From Escherichia coli (GTDB lineage: Bacteria > Pseudomonadota > Gammaproteobacteria > Enterobacterales > Enterobacteriaceae): a stretch of DNA of 51,530 bases. Numbering within the stretch: the stretch's first letter is position 1; each line of letters opens with the position of its first letter. Under the pieces are notes generated by a model. That model did no database searches. It worked only from the letters and a program-made list of their open reading frames with translations, and was not told the origin of the DNA. Shown in pieces: positions 913 to 48,760 of this stretch. The DNA lies in NCBI RefSeq assembly GCF_003334815.1, contig NZ_QOWO01000030.1; one strand, written 5' to 3'. A program made the translations under genes and the position numbers.

Positions 913-2340
913 ATGAGCGATAAAAAGAAGCGCAGTATGGCGGGTTTGCCGTGGATCGCGGCGATGGCCTTCTTCATGCAGGCACTTGATGCCACTATTC
1001 TTAATACCGCCTTACCCGCAATCGCTCATAGCCTTAATCGTTCTCCTCTCGCGATGCAATCAGCCATCATCAGTTATACGCTGACGGTGGCGATGCTTAT
1101 TCCGGTAAGCGGATGGCTAGCCGATCGCTTCGGTACGCGTCGCATTTTTACCCTTGCCGTGAGTCTGTTCACATTGGGTTCTCTGGCCTGCGCACTTTCT
1201 AATTCGCTACCACAGCTGGTTGTCTTCCGGGTTATTCAGGGGATAGGCGGCGCAATGATGATGCCTGTTGCTCGGCTGGCCTTACTGCGCGCTTATCCTC
1301 GTAATGAACTTCTTCCAGTATTGAATTTTGTCGCCATGCCGGGTCTGGTGGGGCCAATTTTAGGCCCCGTTCTTGGCGGCGTGCTGGTCACCTGGGCAAC
1401 CTGGCACTGGATATTTTTAATCAATATCCCCATAGGTATTGCGGGCCTTCTTTACGCGCGCAAACATATGCCCAATTTCACCACCGCACGACGCAGATTC
1501 GATATCACTGGCTTTTTGCTGTTTGGCCTCAGCCTTGTTCTCTTCTCAAGCGGAATAGAGCTATTCGGGGAAAAGATTGTCGCCAGCTGGATTGCCTTGA
1601 CGGTAATTGTCACCAGCATCGGGTTACTGCTTCTCTATATTCTCCATGCACGACGCACGCCAAACCCATTAATTTCATTAGATTTATTTAAAACCCGCAC
1701 TTTCTCGATCGGTATCGTAGGCAATATTGCAACCCGTCTGGGGACCGGCTGTGTACCGTTCCTTATGCCATTGATGTTACAGGTAGGATTTGGTTATCAG
1801 GCGTTTATTGCTGGCTGTATGATGGCACCGACAGCGTTAGGTTCCATTATTGCAAAATCGATGGTTACCCAAGTCTTACGTCGTCTGGGCTATCGCCATA
1901 CGTTAGTGGGGATCACGGTGATTATTGGGCTAATGATCGCTCAGTTCTCTTTGCAATCACCAGCAATGGCTATATGGATGCTGATCTTGCCGTTGTTTAT
2001 ATTAGGGATGGCTATGTCGACGCAGTTTACCGCGATGAATACCATCACACTTGCCGATCTGACCGATGACAATGCCAGCAGCGGTAACAGTGTTCTGGCG
2101 GTCACGCAGCAACTGTCGATTAGTTTAGGCGTTGCTGTAAGTGCGGCCGTCCTTCGCGTTTATGAAGGAATGGAAGGCACAACGACTGTCGAACAATTCC
2201 ACTATACGTTTATCACAATGGGCATTATTACTGTTGCTTCAGCAGCAATGTTCATGCTTCTGAAAACAACCGATGGTAATAATTTGATCAAAAGACAGCG
2301 TAAATCTAAGCCGAACCGCGTTCCATCAGAATCGGAGTAA
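913..2340 (+). CDS. hsrA: MFS transporter HsrA (YieO), 14-TMS drug:H+ antiporter-like
   Basis: 475-aa ORF, highly hydrophobic with MFS signature ([11 protein letters not shown]); 22-bp spacing after yieP suggests co-transcription. Confidence 0.9.
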
Positions 2341-10209: not shown

Positions 10210-10431
10210 AGACTAGTCTTTCGTTGAAATATGAAATGTGTGCTTAGTCCCTTGGCCCACAAAAAAGCGCACAGTATGCACGATTAACGGCAAAATCGTA
10301 CTCCTAAATGCGGCCACATTAACCTGGCTCAAAGAAAAATACCCCCCCTTTGAGACTATTTTAGCCACCAGCAAGAAACGTCTATACTCGCAATTTACGC
10401 AGAACTTTTGACGAAAGGACGCCACTTCATT

Positions 10432-11928
10432 ATGGCTCACCCTCATTTATTAGCGGAAAGAATTTCCCGCCTGAGCAGTTCGTTGGAAAAGGGGCTTTAT
10501 GAACGTAGCCACGCCATCCGCTTGTGTTTATTAGCGGCATTAAGTGGTGAAAGTGTGTTCCTCCTTGGCCCGCCAGGTATTGCCAAAAGTTTGATCGCCC
10601 GGCGCTTAAAATTCGCCTTTCAGAATGCCCGCGCGTTTGAATATCTGATGACCCGCTTCTCCACGCCGGAAGAAGTTTTTGGTCCCCTTTCTATTCAGGC
10701 GCTAAAAGATGAAGGGCGCTATGAACGTTTAACCAGCGGTTACCTGCCGGAAGCAGAAATTGTCTTTCTGGATGAGATCTGGAAAGCGGGCCCGGCAATT
10801 CTTAATACCTTGCTCACCGCCATTAACGAGCGCCAGTTCCGCAACGGTGCACACGTAGAAAAAATCCCGATGCGTCTGCTGGTGGCGGCCTCCAACGAGC
10901 TGCCGGAAGCAGACAGCAGTCTGGAAGCGTTATATGACCGCATGCTGATTCGTCTGTGGTTAGATAAAGTGCAGGATAAAGCGAATTTCCGCTCCATGCT
11001 GACCAGTCAACAGGATGAAAACGACAATCCGGTTCCTGATGCCTTGCAGGTCACAGATGAAGAATATGAACGCTGGCAGAAAGAGATTGGTGAAATTACG
11101 CTGCCCGATCATGTATTTGAGCTGATTTTTATGCTGCGCCAGCAACTGGATAAATTACCGGATGCGCCTTATGTCTCGGATCGTCGCTGGAAAAAAGCGA
11201 TCCGATTATTGCAGGCCAGCGCCTTTTTTAGCGGTCGCAGTGCTGTTGCCCCGGTAGATCTCATTTTGCTGAAAGATTGCCTGTGGTATGACGCGCAAAG
11301 CCTGAATTTGATACAACAACAAATTGATGTATTGATGACCGGTCACGCCTGGCAACAGCAAGGGATGTTGACTCGCCTTGGCGCGATTGTGCAACGTCAC
11401 CTGCAACTCCAGCAGCAACAAAGCGATAAAACAGCCTTAACGGTAATTCGTCTGGGCGGCATTTTCAGCCGTCGTCAGCAGTATCAACTTCCTGTTAACG
11501 TTACTGCTTCCACTCTGACTCTACTGCTGCAAAAACCGTTAAAACTGCATGATATGGAAGTGGTTCATATCTCCTTTGAGCGTAGCGCGCTGGAACAGTG
11601 GCTGAGCAAAGGTGGTGAAATTCGCGGTAAACTGAACGGTATCGGCTTTGCCCAGAAACTGAATCTGGAAGTTGATAGCGCCCAACATCTTGTCGTTCGC
11701 GATGTAAGTTTACAAGGCAGTACGCTGGCACTTCCCGGTTCATCGGCTGAAGGTCTGCCTGGTGAAATAAAACAACAACTGGAAGAGCTTGAAAGCGACT
11801 GGCGCAAGCAACACGCTTTATTCAGCGAACAGCAAAAATGTCTGTTTATCCCTGGCGACTGGTTAGGTCGCATTGAAGCCAGCCTACAGGATGTCGGTGC
11901 ACAGATTCGCCAGGCACAACAATGCTAA
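10432..11928 (+). CDS. ravA: MoxR-family AAA+ ATPase RavA
   Basis: Track ORF 10408..11928; start placed at [12 protein letters not shown] giving 498 aa; Walker A GPPGIAKS and Walker B VFLDEI present. Confidence 0.93.
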
Positions 11929-13373
11929 CGCTGGATACGCTTAATGTGATGCTGGCCGTCAGCGAAGAGGGATTGATCGAAGAGATGATCATCGCACTGC
12001 TGGCCTCACCGCAGCTGGCGGTCTTCTTTGAAAAATTCCCACGCCTGAAGGCGGCAATCACTGATGATGTTCCCCGCTGGCGTGAAGCGCTGCGCAGTCG
12101 GCTGAAAGATGCCCGAGTCCCGCCGGAACTCACCGAAGAGGTGATGTGCTATCAGCAAAGCCAGCTCCTCTCCACGCCACAGTTTATTGTGCAGCTACCA
12201 CAGATCCTGGACTTACTGCATCGTCTGAATTCTCCATGGGCAGAACAAGCCCGACAGTTGGTTGATGCTAACAGCACGATCACTTCAGCGTTACACACGC
12301 TTTTTCTCCAGCGTTGGCGTTTAAGTCTGATCGTGCAAGCAACGACGTTAAATCAACAGCTATTAGAAGAAGAACGCGAACAACTGTTGAGTGAAGTTCA
12401 GGAACGCATGACGCTGAGCGGACAACTTGAACCGATTCTCGCAGATAACAATACTGCAGCTGGTCGTCTGTGGGATATGAGCGCCGGTCAGCTTAAACGT
12501 GGCGACTATCAGTTGATTGTGAAATACGGTGAATTTCTTAACGAACAGCCGGAACTGAAACGCCTGGCAGAGCAGCTGGGGCGTTCTCGGGAAGCCAAAT
12601 CAATACCGCGCAACGATGCGCAGATGGAAACCTTCCGCACCATGGTGCGCGAACCGGCGACGGTTCCTGAGCAGGTTGATGGTCTGCAACAAAGCGATGA
12701 TATTTTACGTCTCCTGCCGCCAGAACTGGCGACACTAGGGATAACGGAACTGGAGTATGAGTTTTACCGTCGGCTGGTGGAAAAACAGTTGCTCACCTAT
12801 CGCCTGCACGGTGAGTCGTGGCGTGAAAAAGTGATCGAACGTCCGGTGGTACATAAAGATTACGATGAACAGCCGCGCGGGCCGTTTATTGTCTGTGTGG
12901 ATACTTCCGGCTCAATGGGCGGCTTTAATGAACAGTGTGCGAAAGCGTTCTGCCTGGCCTTGATGCGCATTGCTCTCGCAGAAAACCGGCGCTGCTATAT
13001 TATGCTATTTTCCACCGAGATCGTCCGTTATGAGCTTTCAGGCCCACAAGGCATCGAACAAGCAATCCGTTTTTTAAGCCAGCAGTTTCGTGGCGGCACC
13101 GATCTTGCCAGTTGTTTTCGCGCCATTATGGAACGCTTGCAAAGCAGGGAATGGTTTGATGCCGATGCGGTGGTGATTTCTGATTTTATCGCTCAGCGGT
13201 TGCCTGACGACGTGACGAGTAAAGTGAAAGAGCTGCAGCGGGTACATCAGCATCGCTTTCATGCCGTGGCGATGTCGGCACACGGCAAACCCGGCATCAT
13301 GCGCATTTTCGATCATATCTGGCGCTTTGATACCGGGATGCGAAGCCGCCTGCTCAGACGCTGGCGGCGATAA
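11922..13373 (+). CDS. viaA: von Willebrand factor A domain protein ViaA
   Basis: 483-aa ORF whose ATG overlaps the ravA stop (ATGCTAA, 7-nt overlap), indicating translational coupling; VWA MIDAS-like motif DTSGSM. Confidence 0.93.
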
Positions 13374-13377
13374 ATTA

Positions 13378-14370
13378 TTACAGCAGAGAAGGGACGCTCT
13401 CGCGAACAGCAGCTGGCCATACTCCACACTGAACCTGGCCGATATGCGGCAGTTGCAGCAGCAGCATAGTCAAACGAGACTGGCCGATACCGCCGCCGAT
13501 GGTCTGCGGCATTTCACCGCGCAGCAGCGCCTGATGCCACTCCAGCTCCAGGCGATCTTCGTCACCGGTCAGCGCCAGTTGATGCTTCAGCGTGTCGGCA
13601 TCTACACGGATCCCCATGGAGGAAAGCTCAAACGCATCTTCCAGTACCGGGTTCCACACCAGAATATCGCCGTTCAGACCCGCATGGCCCAGCTCTGACG
13701 GGGTGCTCCAGTCATCATAATCCGGTGCGCGCACGTCGTGGCGATGACCATCGCTCAGCTTGCCGCCAATCCCGACAAGGAATACCGCGCCAAGATCTTT
13801 CGCTATCGCCCGCTCACGCCCTTTGGCATCAAGATCCGGATAACGAGACAGTAACTCCTGGCTGTGTACGAAGTGGATCTGATCCGGCAGGAACGGTGCC
13901 AGGCCAAACTCTTCGCTAACCGCAGCTTCGGTTGCTTTAATTCCCGCCCAGATCGCCTCTACCGTGCTTTTCAGAGTCGAGAATTGACGCTCACCGTCGC
14001 CCATTACGCGTTCCCAGTCCCACTGGTCAACATAGACCGAGTGCAACGGAGAAAGACGGTCTTCATCGGGGCGAAGGGCTTTCATGTGCGTGTACAGCCC
14101 TTCGCCCGCGCTGAAGTCGTGTTGCCCTAAGGTCTGACGTTTCCACTTCGCCAGTGAATGAACCACTTCGAACTGGGCATCAGGCAGAGCTTTCACTTTT
14201 ACCTGCACCGCTTTTTCACAGCCCGACAAGTTATCCTGCGTGCCATCCCCCACACGGCTAAGAATCGGCGCCTGGACTTCGATCAGCCCCAGACGTTCTT
14301 CCAGTTGACGAGAAAAGTGAGATTTCACGAAGCTAATTTGACGTTGTTTGGCAATGTAAGCGGTTTTCAT
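13378..14370 (-). CDS. asnA: aspartate--ammonia ligase AsnA (asparagine synthetase A)
   Basis: 330-aa ORF matching AsnA; divergent from asnC across a 151-bp control region. Confidence 0.95.
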
Positions 14371-15513: not shown

Positions 15514-15535
15514 GTATACAGATCGTGCGATCTAC

Positions 15536-15544
15536 TGTGGATAA
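15536..15544. promoter_or_regulatory. DnaA box R4 (TGTGGATAA)
   Basis: Exact consensus 9-mer at the mioC-proximal end of oriC. Confidence 0.85.
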
Positions 15545-15715
15545 CTCTGTCAGGAAGCTTGGATCAACCGGTAGTTATCCAAAGAACAACTGTTGTTCAG
15601 TTTTTGAGTTGTGTATAACCCCTCATTCTGATCCCAGCTTATACGGTCCAGGATCACCGATCATTCACAGTTAATGATCCTTTCCAGGTTGTTGATCTTA
15701 AAAGCCGGATCCTTG

Positions 15716-15724
15716 TTATCCACA
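15716..15724. promoter_or_regulatory. DnaA box R1 (TTATCCACA)
   Basis: Exact consensus 9-mer adjacent to the 13-mer region. Confidence 0.85.
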
Positions 15725-15737
15725 GGGCAGTGCGATC

Positions 15738-15781
15738 CTAATAAGAGATCACAATAGAACAGATCTCTAAATAAATAGATC
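15738..15781. repeat. oriC DNA-unwinding element: three tandem AT-rich 13-mers
   Basis: ctaataagagatc / aatagaacagatc / aaataaatagatc, the reverse complements of the canonical GATCTnTTnTTTT 13-mers. Confidence 0.9.
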
Positions 15782-15891
15782 TTCTTTTTAATACCCAGGA
15801 TCCCAGGTCTTTCTCAAGCCGACAAAGTTGAGTAGAATCCACGGCCCGGGCTTCAATCCATTTTCATACCGCGTTATGCGAGGCAATCACC

Positions 15892-26024: not shown

Positions 26025-26324
26025 GCGCGTGTGACCCGTCCTGAATAGCGTTCACATAGATCCTGCTGATATAAAACCCCCCTGTTTTCCTGTTTATTCA
26101 TTGATCGAAATAAGAGCAAAAACATCCACCTGACGCTTAAATTAAGGTACTGCCTTAATTTTCTGCAGACAAAAGGCGTGACGATGGTCGAAAATGGCGC
26201 TTTCGTCAGCGGGGATAATCCGTTATTGAACAATTTATCCTCTGTCCATTTCACGATGAAAAAAATGTAGTTTTTTCAAGGTGAAGCGGTTTAAATTCGT
26301 TCTCAAATTACAGTCAGGACGCGT

Positions 26325-31123: not shown

Positions 31124-32976
<1,853 letters not shown>

Positions 32977-47800: not shown

Positions 47801-48760
47801 TTATGCCATCGACGCGTAAAGGTTTTTAATGGTTTCCCGTAACCAGACGATCTTCGGATTATGGCTGTTCCGTTTATGCCACAGCAGGGTAAAAGGAACT
47901 TCCAGCTTTTTTTGCTGGCTTTCGTCAAACGGGAGAGGAAGAGCAACCAACGGCAGTTGATGGAGTTGATTGTAGTACTGACAGTAGCGCGGCGCGGTCG
48001 CCAGTAGCAGATTGTCGGGTTGCGCTGCCATAAACAGTGACTGCTCGAATTCCGGCAGGCTCATAGCAATCGTGCGTTCGCGTCCCAGCTCCTGTAACAC
48101 ATTGTCCAGCGCCCAGGTATCGCTCTGTTCCCAGCAAATGCTGATATGCGGATAACGTAAGAAGGTGTCCAGATTCCACGTTTGATGCAGTGCCGGATGA
48201 TCTTTGCGTAACCAGACGCAGGGCACATCACTAAACAGCACTTCATAATCAATGGCTAACGGTAGCGAGCTTAACAGCTCCCGCGAGCGAGGATGGCTTT
48301 CGCGACCGGAAAAACCGATATCCACTTCACCACGAGTAATGGCATCTAAGGAATCGTAATCCCAGTTACGTAATTTGATGGTCGCCTGCGGGTAACGTTG
48401 GTAGATCTGTTTCGACAGCGCATTAAGCATGATCATCATCAGCGGTGATTCCGCCGCCAGCTCAAACTTCAGGCCGCGCGGTGTCTGGTGGTGCGGTTTA
48501 TCCAGCAGCAGGTTGCTCATTTGCATCCACTCCGCCAGATTTTGCTCCATGCTGACCATCAGCGGTGTGGGCGACAGACCCAGCGGTGAGTTCACAAAGA
48601 GCGGGTCGTCAAACCACGCTCTTAACTTTGCCAGCGACTTACTCACCGCCGAAGGTGTCACGTTTATCCGCTTCGCCGCTTTGGTTACGCTGCGCTCCTG
48701 CATCAGCAGTTGCAGACAAAGCAGCAGATTGAGATCAAGCGTGGTGATGGATTTCTTCAT
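47801..48760 (-). CDS. yidZ: LysR-family transcriptional regulator YidZ
   Basis: Track ORF 47801..48769; start placed at [16 protein letters not shown] giving 319 aa; LysR HTH and substrate-binding domain; overlaps the 3' end of mdtL. Confidence 0.88.

What the first reader, a model, noticed from the sequence alone, without database searches (positions are those of the whole stretch)
10432..13373. Translationally coupled MoxR AAA+ ATPase and VWA protein pair (ravA-viaA)
The viaA start codon overlaps the ravA stop by 7 nt (ATGCTAA). RavA carries Walker A/B motifs and ViaA a MIDAS-type VWA motif (DTSGSM). MoxR-VWA pairs act as chaperone-like modules, and the physiological role of this pair remains incompletely understood.
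Basis: partly seen in the sequence, partly recalled or inferred. Interest (0 to 1): 0.25.

Follow-up and report, generated by a model that had tools for sequence, protein, structure and literature searches.

The report
E. coli ravA-viaA operon, already known

Summary
ravA (10432-11928, 498 aa) and viaA (11922-13373, 483 aa) overlap by the 7 nt ATGCTAA. The stretch is 100% identical to E. coli K-12 MG1655, where both genes carry these names.

Both proteins match their NCBIfam equivalog models far above cutoff. RavA has the MoxR/AAA_5, AAA-lid, LARA and RavA_C domains. ViaA has a C-terminal VWA domain with DTSGS, T393 and D421. Structures exist for identical sequences: RavA 3NBX and 6Q7L, and the ViaA N-terminal domain 7UGC.

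New detail on the overlap comes from 80 Enterobacteriaceae species. The exact 7-nt form is not universal: 49 have 7 nt (ATGYTRA), 18 have 4 nt (ATGA) and 13 have 1 nt (TAATG). None has a spacer, and all keep the same frame offset. More distant relatives range from -4 to +113 nt.

The viaA Shine-Dalgarno match is among the weakest in the window, and the junction RNA is unstructured. This fits termination-reinitiation coupling, and so does the published ratio of about 350 RavA to 90 ViaA per cell. Coupling itself remains an inference; no experiment on it was found.

Novelty: already known. Interest: low.

Side observation: a nearly invariant, unannotated block of about 70 nt lies in the kup-ravA intergenic region.

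The parts
10382..10387 (+). Putative -10 hexamer TATACT of the ravA-viaA promoter, preceded by C at 10381 (a sigma-S-like CTATACT). It ends 44 nt upstream of the ravA ATG.
   Evidence: A TATA[AC]T hexamer ends 40-45 nt upstream of the ravA ATG in 75 of 76 Enterobacteriaceae loci, and most have C just upstream (alignment). Sigma-S dependence of the operon is reported in PMC3893208. The transcription start was not mapped here, so the assignment is inferred.
10432..11928 (+). ravA coding sequence (498 aa + TAA): MoxR-family AAA+ ATPase RavA.
   Evidence: ORF and sequence; RefSeq annotation; Pfam; NCBIfam equivalog NF010054 at 993 bits; identical to PDB 3nbx, 6q7l and 6sza.
10567..10590 (+). Walker A / P-loop, GPPGIAKS (RavA residues 46-53).
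   Evidence: Motif search on the translation. It lies inside the AAA_5 match, residues 42-171. A K52Q Walker A mutant is reported as ATPase-inactive in PMC3893208.
10759..10776 (+). Walker B, IVFLDE (RavA residues 110-115).
   Evidence: Motif search; sequence read directly.
11434..11739 (+). LARA domain of RavA (residues 335-436), the LdcI-binding domain.
   Evidence: Pfam LARA_dom, 2e-39. PDB 4upf and 5fl2 contain this fragment. The LdcI-binding function comes from PMC10585395 and PMC4145799.
11922..11928 (+). Stop/start overlap ATGCTAA. ATG is the viaA start and TAA is the ravA stop. viaA is in the -1 frame relative to ravA.
   Evidence: Sequence. 80 of 80 Enterobacteriaceae loci overlap: 49 by 7 nt, 18 by 4 nt, 13 by 1 nt. 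SD duplex energy is -2.5 kcal/mol, the 4th weakest of 46 genes in the window.
11922..13373 (+). viaA coding sequence (483 aa + TAA): VWA-domain partner of RavA.
   Evidence: ORF; annotation; NCBIfam equivalog NF008230 at 879 bits; Pfam.
11922..12494 (+). N-terminal helical domain of ViaA (residues 1-191, the 'VAN fold').
   Evidence: Identical to PDB 7ugc chain A over residues 1-191, E = 6e-117. The NMR structure is described in PMC10585395.
12879..13292 (+). VWA domain of ViaA (residues 320-457).
   Evidence: Pfam VWA_CoxE 5.8e-10 and VWA_2 5.5e-8.
12900..12914 (+). MIDAS motif DxSxS, DTSGS (ViaA residues 327-331). The further MIDAS-type residues T393 and D421 are also present.
   Evidence: Motif search. 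D327, S329, S331, T393, D394 and D421 are invariant in the 12-species ViaA alignment.
13341..13370 (+). Arginine-rich C-terminus of ViaA ([10 protein letters not shown], residues 474-483).
   Evidence: R474, R476, R479, R480 and R483 are invariant in alignment A1. An R476E/R479E lipid-binding-deficient mutant was used in PMC9489729.

Best explanation
The region is the chromosomal ravA-viaA operon of E. coli K-12.

What the two proteins are. RavA is a hexameric MoxR-family AAA+ ATPase made of an AAA+ core, a lid, a triple-helix bundle, a LARA domain and a C-terminal helix. ViaA has an N-terminal helical 'VAN' domain, a middle region, and a C-terminal VWA domain with a MIDAS site.

What the literature reports:
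- ViaA binds RavA and stimulates its ATPase.
- The pair associates with the inner membrane and anionic phospholipids, and with respiratory complexes (fumarate reductase, Nuo).
- RavA also forms a cage with lysine decarboxylase LdcI.
- The operon sensitises cells to aminoglycosides under low-energy anaerobic conditions in a pmf-dependent way.
- The operon is transcribed as one unit, dependent on sigma-S and Fnr.

What is shown here: gene identity, domain content, motifs and the overlap.

What is inferred here: viaA is translated mainly by ribosomes that have just terminated at the ravA stop (termination-reinitiation coupling). The reasons are that its ATG sits 4 nt upstream of that stop, it has almost no Shine-Dalgarno sequence, the junction is unstructured, and every Enterobacteriaceae species examined keeps a stop/start overlap. 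Inefficient reinitiation would explain why ViaA is made at about a quarter of the RavA level.
For: Identity: 100% DNA identity to MG1655, with ravA and viaA annotated; NCBIfam equivalogs; Pfam domains; identical solved structures; motifs.

Coupling:
- ATGCTAA overlap.
- SD duplex energy of -2.5 kcal/mol against a window median of -5.6, the 4th weakest of 46.
- All 49 loci with the 7-nt overlap have -2.5 to -3.6 kcal/mol.
- The 100-nt junction RNA folds less well than 196 of 200 shuffles (z = +1.72).
- 80 of 80 species keep an overlap of 7, 4 or 1 nt, and the classes are scattered among genera: Escherichia, Kluyvera, Kosakonia and Enterobacter each have more than one class.
- No alternative in-frame start lies upstream of the viaA ATG in any of the 80 loci.
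- About 350 RavA and 90 ViaA molecules per cell are reported (PMC3893208).

Function: PMC9489729, PMC9973319, PMC10585395, PMC3893208.
Against: - No experiment on viaA translational coupling was found. No paper in the library contains both 'viaA' and 'translational coupling'.
- PMC3893208 reports that the ViaA level is unchanged in a marker-free ravA deletion. If the scar does not keep translation running to the ravA stop, this argues for independent initiation. The primer design of that deletion was not available to me.
- More distant ravA-viaA pairs have spacers of 3, 9, 18 and 113 nt as called, so overlap is not required for the system.
- The molecular mechanism of RavA-ViaA is disputed between laboratories. 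Direct FrdA/Nuo binding was not reproduced in PMC9489729, and RavA lipid binding was not seen by the authors of PMC10585395.
Confidence: 0.9

Rival explanations
1. The overlap is only genome compaction. viaA is initiated independently by free 30S subunits at its own weak site, and its low level simply reflects that weak site. The overlap has no regulatory role.
For: - The junction RNA is unstructured, so the ATG is accessible.
- ViaA is reported unchanged in a clean ravA deletion (PMC3893208).
- Distant relatives have spacers of +3 to +113 nt. Some of them carry a real SD: GGAG in L086, GGAGG in L085.
Against: - The SD match is near the bottom of the window's distribution, and it stays that weak in all 49 species with the 7-nt overlap.
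- 80 of 80 Enterobacteriaceae species retain an overlap despite repeated switches between the 7-, 4- and 1-nt forms, and never a gap.
Confidence: 0.3
2. The pair belongs to the MoxR-vWA-beta-propeller ternary (conflict or defence-type) systems, as suggested by the best Pfam hit, bpMoxR.
For: bpMoxR (PF20030) is the top Pfam match of RavA, at 2e-56.
Against: - No third gene is present. The neighbours are kup (divergent) and asnA (convergent, with the two stops 4 nt apart).
- There is no PADLOC hit for either protein.
- The locus is core chromosome, present in 5423 of 5426 E. coli genomes at one copy, with conserved synteny across the family.
- The RavA-specific LARA and C-terminal domains are present.
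Confidence: 0.02
3. A programmed -1 frameshift near the end of ravA produces a RavA-ViaA fusion protein.
For: viaA is in the -1 frame relative to ravA. One database protein, P0007 from Salmonella Infantis, is a RavA-ViaA fusion.
Against: - The viaA frame is open for only 15 codons upstream of its ATG.
- There is no X XXY YYZ slippery heptamer in the last 150 nt of ravA.
- No stable structure lies downstream.
- P0007 is an in-frame deletion joining RavA 1-314 to ViaA 8-473, not a frameshift product.
- Western blots in the literature report separate proteins (PMC3893208).
Confidence: 0.01

Closest known systems
E. coli K-12 RavA-ViaA (b3746-b3745; formerly yieN-yieM)
   Same: Identical DNA and proteins, the same neighbours (kup upstream and divergent, asnA downstream and convergent), and the same overlap.
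   Different: Nothing. This is the locus itself.
NorQ-NorD, the MoxR AAA+/VWA pair that inserts non-heme iron into nitric oxide reductase (PMC9976466; seen only in the listing)
   Same: A MoxR-class AAA+ ATPase is encoded next to a VWA/MIDAS partner that acts as an adaptor, with a chaperone or maturation role for a respiratory membrane complex.
   Different: NorQ lacks the LARA and RavA C-terminal domains, and NorD lacks the ViaA VAN domain. NorQD has a defined client (cNOR FeB insertion), whereas the RavA-ViaA client is still debated. This comparison rests on the literature and was not tested here.
MoxR-vWA-beta-propeller ternary systems (Pfam bpMoxR, PF20030)
   Same: The AAA+ core of RavA scores best against this Pfam model, and a VWA partner gene is adjacent.
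   Different: No beta-propeller gene is present. The locus is a conserved core-genome locus with RavA-specific LARA and C-terminal domains, and there is no PADLOC hit.
Classical overlapping stop/start junctions (ATGA, TAATG) that mediate translational coupling in bacterial operons; the general mechanism is established knowledge
   Same: The stop codon of the upstream gene lies within a few nucleotides of the downstream ATG. In related species the junction is literally ATGA or TAATG.
   Different: In E. coli the stop lies 4 nt downstream of the ATG (a 7-nt overlap), so a terminating ribosome would have to scan back a few nucleotides. Coupling has not been tested for this pair.

Membership tests
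MoxR AAA+ ATPases, RavA subfamily | AAA+ core with Walker A (GxxGxxK[ST]) and Walker B (hhhhDE) | tested here: met
   GPPGIAKS at 46-53 and IVFLDE at 110-115. AAA_5 9e-28 and bpMoxR 2e-56.
MoxR AAA+ ATPases, RavA subfamily | AAA lid, LARA domain and RavA C-terminal domain in this order | tested here: met
   AAA_lid_8 at 227-298, LARA_dom at 335-436, ATPase_RavA_C at 444-497.
MoxR AAA+ ATPases, RavA subfamily | Full-length match to the curated RavA equivalog model above its cutoff | tested here: met
   NF010054: 993 bits against a cutoff of 681, covering 1-498 of 498. Identical to PDB 3nbx, 6q7l and 6sza.
MoxR AAA+ ATPases, RavA subfamily | Hexamer formation and ATPase activity stimulated by the VWA partner | not testable with these tools
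   Reported for this exact protein in PMC6987120, PMC10585395 and PMC3893208.
MoxR AAA+ ATPases, RavA subfamily | Adjacent gene encoding a VWA-domain protein | tested here: met
   viaA overlaps the ravA stop. The same order is found in all 80 species loci and in the 8 more distant loci; in 2 of the 8 the truncated upstream gene has no Pfam record and is taken to be ravA.
ViaA (VWA partner of RavA) | C-terminal VWA domain with MIDAS residues DxSxS...T...D | tested here: met
   VWA_CoxE and VWA_2 at 320-457. D327, S329, S331, T393 and D421 are present and invariant in 12 species. Metal binding itself was not tested.
ViaA (VWA partner of RavA) | N-terminal VAN-fold helical domain | tested here: met
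   Residues 1-191 are identical to PDB 7ugc.
ViaA (VWA partner of RavA) | Full-length match to the curated ViaA equivalog model | tested here: met
   NF008230: 879 bits against a cutoff of 500.
Translationally coupled gene pair | Downstream start within a few nucleotides of the upstream stop, on one mRNA with no terminator between them | tested here: met
   7-nt overlap. The only terminator-like hits between the genes are chance-level hairpins inside viaA. The operon status comes from the literature.
Translationally coupled gene pair | Weak or absent independent ribosome-binding site for the downstream gene | tested here: met
   -2.5 kcal/mol, the 4th weakest of 46 genes. The range is -2.5 to -3.6 in the 49 species with the 7-nt form.
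Translationally coupled gene pair | Downstream translation depends on upstream translation | not testable with these tools
   No published test was found. The published clean ravA deletion leaves ViaA unchanged, but its scar design is unknown to me.
MoxR-vWA-beta-propeller ternary systems | A third, beta-propeller-encoding gene in the same cluster | tested here: not met
   The neighbours are kup and asnA. There is no PADLOC match.

The most novel reading that the evidence does not exclude
viaA translation in Enterobacteriaceae depends on termination-reinitiation at the ravA stop, and this fixes a sub-stoichiometric ViaA:RavA ratio.

Selection acts on the overlap itself and not on its sequence. 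Lineages have switched repeatedly between 7-, 4- and 1-nt overlaps by single small changes: CAA to TAA, loss or replacement of the Leu2 codon, and TAA to TGA or back. None of them ever opened a gap.

In addition, the nearly invariant, unannotated block of about 70 nt located 120-195 nt upstream of ravA would be an uncharacterised regulatory element of kup and/or ravA-viaA.
Probability: 0.35. Interest if true: 0.25.

Novelty: already known. Interest (0 to 1): 0.08.

Why it matters
Confirming this locus adds nothing new about what it is. RavA-ViaA has been studied since 2006, with crystal, cryo-EM and NMR structures and several functional papers.

The open question in the field is the molecular client and mechanism: respiratory complexes, membrane lipids, or aminoglycoside uptake. 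Sequence analysis of this window does not bear on that.

The small added value here is threefold:
- The stop/start overlap, not its 7-nt form, is what is conserved across Enterobacteriaceae, together with a consistently weak SD. This gives a testable explanation for the low ViaA:RavA ratio.
- Anyone engineering ravA deletions should keep translation running to the native stop.
- There is an unusually conserved non-coding block upstream that nobody seems to have annotated.

Tried and rejected
- **FNR site.** A consensus scan with TTGATNNNNATCAA at up to 3 mismatches gave only one 3-mismatch hit in the kup-ravA intergenic region (10319-10332), which is chance level. TTGAG-N4-TTTTA at 10350-10363 is at best a poor match. 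The published Fnr control could not be tied to a site.
- **Sigma-70 promoter.** The scan found nothing upstream of ravA. This is consistent with a non-canonical, sigma-S- or activator-dependent promoter, but it is not evidence for one.
- **Occluding RNA structure at the viaA start.** Rejected, because the junction folds worse than shuffles.
- **Programmed frameshift fusion.** Rejected.
- **Defence-system membership.** Rejected (and the gene neighbourhood).
- **Conserved intergenic block as a structured RNA.** There is no Rfam match even at E <= 10. RNAalifold on the plus strand gives -2 kcal/mol with zero covariation. On the minus strand it gives only a weak terminator-like hairpin plus a U-run, at -7.1 kcal/mol. 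It is not coding, because the A-run length varies by 1 nt among species. What it is remains undecided.
- **Literature searches.** Searches for a mapped ravA transcription start and for 'viaA' together with 'translational coupling' found nothing usable.
Full report
**Observation**

The window between 10432 and 13373 holds two same-strand ORFs. The first, using the ATG at 10432, ends with TAA at 11926-11928 and encodes 498 aa. The second starts with ATG at 11922, ends at 13373 and encodes 483 aa. The shared 7 nt read ATGCTAA. The ORF lister also offers a TTG at 10408. The annotated start and the start seen in solved structures is the ATG at 10432.

- Walker A, GPPGIAKS, at residues 46-53.
- Walker B, IVFLDE, at residues 110-115.
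- DTSGSM at ViaA residues 327-332.

**Identity**

- A megablast of 10210-13380 finds 100% identity to E. coli K-12 MG1655 and many other strains. The region is present once in 5423 of 5426 complete E. coli genomes, always on the chromosome.
- RefSeq annotates 'ATPase RavA' and 'ATPase RavA stimulator ViaA' at exactly these coordinates. They are flanked by kup (divergent) and asnA (convergent).
- Pfam gives bpMoxR, AAA_5, AAA_lid_8, LARA_dom and ATPase_RavA_C for RavA. It gives VWA_CoxE and VWA_2 at residues 320-457 for ViaA.
- Both proteins match the NCBIfam equivalog models over their full length, far above cutoff.
- RavA is identical to the chains of PDB 3nbx, 6q7l and 6sza. ViaA residues 1-191 are identical to 7ugc.
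- Neither protein hits PADLOC.

**The overlap across species**

I scanned one genome per species (GTDB) with a ViaA alignment and kept 80 Enterobacteriaceae loci. In each I located the ravA stop and the viaA start.

| Overlap | Sequence | Species |
|---|---|---|
| 7 nt | ATGCTAA | 25 |
| 7 nt | ATGCTGA | 23 |
| 7 nt | ATGTTAA | 1 |
| 4 nt | ATGA | 18 |
| 1 nt | TAATG | 13 |
| spacer | none | 0 |

- In none of the 80 loci is there an alternative in-frame start upstream of the ATG.
- All three overlap classes keep viaA in the same (-1) frame relative to ravA.
- The classes are interconvertible by single small events. CAA to TAA truncates RavA by two residues. Loss or replacement of the ViaA Leu2 codon gives ATGA. 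TAA and TGA interchange within the 7-nt form (tails listed).
- The classes are mixed within genera: Escherichia, Kluyvera, Kosakonia and Enterobacter each show more than one. Switching has therefore happened repeatedly, and an overlap was kept each time.
- Within E. coli, the 61-nt junction is at least 95% identical in 5417 of 5426 genomes.

Farther out, I looked at ViaA relatives of 34-64% identity. They were found with a representative search and located on contigs. An upstream gene lies directly before viaA in the same orientation in all 8 loci. It has RavA-type Pfam domains in 6 of them; in the other 2 it is cut by the contig end and has no Pfam record. The spacings, as called, are +3, -4, -1, +9, -4, +18, +3 and +113 nt. 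The overlap is therefore a family-level habit and not a requirement of the system.

**Is viaA translationally coupled?**

Evidence consistent with coupling:
- The best anti-SD duplex in the 18 nt upstream of the viaA ATG is -2.5 kcal/mol, formed by a bare AGG that is also the conserved Gln-Ala codon pair of RavA. The median over the window's 46 genes is -5.6, and viaA ranks 4th weakest.
- All 49 species with the 7-nt form have -2.5 to -3.6 kcal/mol.
- The 100 nt around the junction fold less stably than 196 of 200 shuffles. The start is therefore not masked, and a terminating ribosome would find an open ATG 4 nt behind its stop.
- The viaA frame is open for only 15 codons upstream, and no slippery heptamer is present, so a frameshift fusion is not indicated.
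- Published quantitative westerns give about 350 RavA and 90 ViaA molecules per cell (PMC3893208). This is what inefficient reinitiation would produce.

Evidence against, or missing:
- No paper in the library contains both 'viaA' and 'translational coupling'.
- The same paper states that the ViaA level is unchanged in a marker-free ravA deletion, and raised in the cat-marked one. Whether the scar preserves translation to the ravA stop could not be established.

I therefore treat coupling as likely (about 0.6) but unproven.

**How the system works (from the literature, not tested here)**

- RavA is a hexameric MoxR AAA+ ATPase. ViaA binds it and stimulates its ATPase (PMC10585395).
- Both proteins localise to the inner membrane and bind anionic lipids: RavA binds PG, and ViaA binds PA and CL. 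Lipid-binding mutants, including ViaA R476E/R479E, lose the gentamicin-sensitising effect (PMC9489729).
- The operon increases pmf-dependent gentamicin uptake under fumarate respiration or fermentation, but not under nitrate or oxygen respiration (PMC9973319).
- Links to fumarate reductase, Nuo, Fe-S biogenesis and persistence are reported (PMC3893208, PMC10585395).
- RavA also cages LdcI through its LARA domain (PMC4145799, PMC6987120).
- Expression depends on sigma-S and Fnr.

In the sequence, a CTATACT-type -10 element sits 44 nt upstream of the ravA ATG. It is conserved in position in 75 of 76 species loci, which fits sigma-S. I could not find a convincing FNR box or a sigma-70 consensus promoter.

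**Comparison and novelty**

This is the type locus of the RavA subfamily of MoxR ATPases and is already known. It resembles NorQ/NorD and CbbQ/CbbO in logic: an AAA+ motor with a VWA adaptor that acts on a dedicated complex. It differs from them in having the LARA and VAN domains and an unresolved client. It is not a MoxR-vWA-beta-propeller ternary system, because no third gene is present. The interest score is low.

**Things seen in passing**

1. *Conserved intergenic block.* The 222-nt kup-ravA intergenic region contains an almost invariant block at about 10237-10309. It is far more conserved than its flanks across 63 distinct Enterobacteriaceae sequences. It is single-copy and unannotated in E. 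coli and has no Rfam match. There is no covariation support for a structured RNA. It is not coding, because the A-run length varies. It includes a fixed-spacing palindrome, ACGATT-N8-AATCGT. On the kup strand it has a weak hairpin followed by T6. Its nature is unresolved; it may be an operator, a promoter or a kup leader.
2. *IS4 insertion.* IS4 is inserted at 10343-10354, with a 12-bp duplication just upstream of the putative ravA core promoter, in 45 of 5426 E. coli genomes.
3. *Convergent stops.* The viaA and asnA stop codons are 4 nt apart. Across 74 species the distance is -4 to +17 nt, so there is no intergenic terminator.
4. *Fusion protein.* A Salmonella Infantis entry encodes an in-frame RavA(1-314)-ViaA(8-473) fusion.
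5. *Rest of the window.* It contains the oriC region between mioC and mnmG, then the atp, pst and bgl operons, and an STnc410 sRNA match at 26084-26241.

Noticed in passing
window 10237-10309 (kup-ravA intergenic region): A nearly invariant non-coding block of about 70 nt: tgtgtgcttagtcccttggcccacaaaaaagcgcacagtatgcacgatta, then 8 variable nt, then aaatcgtacYcctaaat. It is conserved across 63 distinct Enterobacteriaceae sequences and partly in a more distant relative (L083). It is single-copy and unannotated in E. coli. There is no Rfam match and no covariation, and it is not coding. It contains the fixed-spacing palindrome ACGATT-N8-AATCGT and, on the kup strand, a weak hairpin followed by T6. 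Its spacing to the ravA -10 element is nearly constant, while its distance to the kup ATG varies (about 110 nt is inserted in Salmonella and Citrobacter). Function unknown.
   Followed up: partly
window 10343-10354; locus L082 646-2071: In 45 of 5426 complete E. coli genomes, a 1426-bp IS4 is inserted here with a 12-bp target duplication (cccccctttgag). The site is about 30 bp upstream of the putative ravA -10 element, so the insertion separates the core promoter from the conserved upstream block. Its effect on ravA-viaA or kup expression is unknown.
   Followed up: partly
window 13371-13380 (viaA stop / asnA stop): The convergent viaA and asnA genes end 4 nt apart, with no terminator-like hairpin between them. 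In 74 Enterobacteriaceae loci the distance is -4 to +17 nt, most often 0. Transcripts of each gene must therefore run into the other. asnA was one of seven genes whose mRNA changed in both the ravA::cat and the RavA-ViaA overexpression microarray sets of PMC3893208, which could be a cis effect.
   Followed up: partly
protein P0007 (Salmonella enterica serovar Infantis; not in the window): A 785-aa database protein is an in-frame fusion of RavA residues 1-314 to ViaA residues 8-473, which deletes the LARA and C-terminal domains. It is a single sequence on one contig and could be a real deletion or an assembly artefact.
   Followed up: partly
window 15514-15891: The gap between mioC and mnmG (gidA) is, from general knowledge of the E. 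coli map, the chromosomal replication origin oriC. The window therefore spans the origin region, followed by rsmG, the atp operon, glmUS, pstSCAB-phoU and the bgl operon. I did not examine it.
   Followed up: no
window 26084-26241 (minus strand): The only Rfam gathering-level hit in the whole window is the enterobacterial sRNA STnc410 (188 bits), between atpC and glmU.
   Followed up: no
window 2306-2340 and 48735-48760: Two other gene overlaps appear in the annotation. The convergent mdtD and rbsR ends overlap by 35 nt. The co-directional mdtL and yidZ genes overlap by 26 nt. pstC and pstA overlap by 1 nt at 32086.
   Followed up: no
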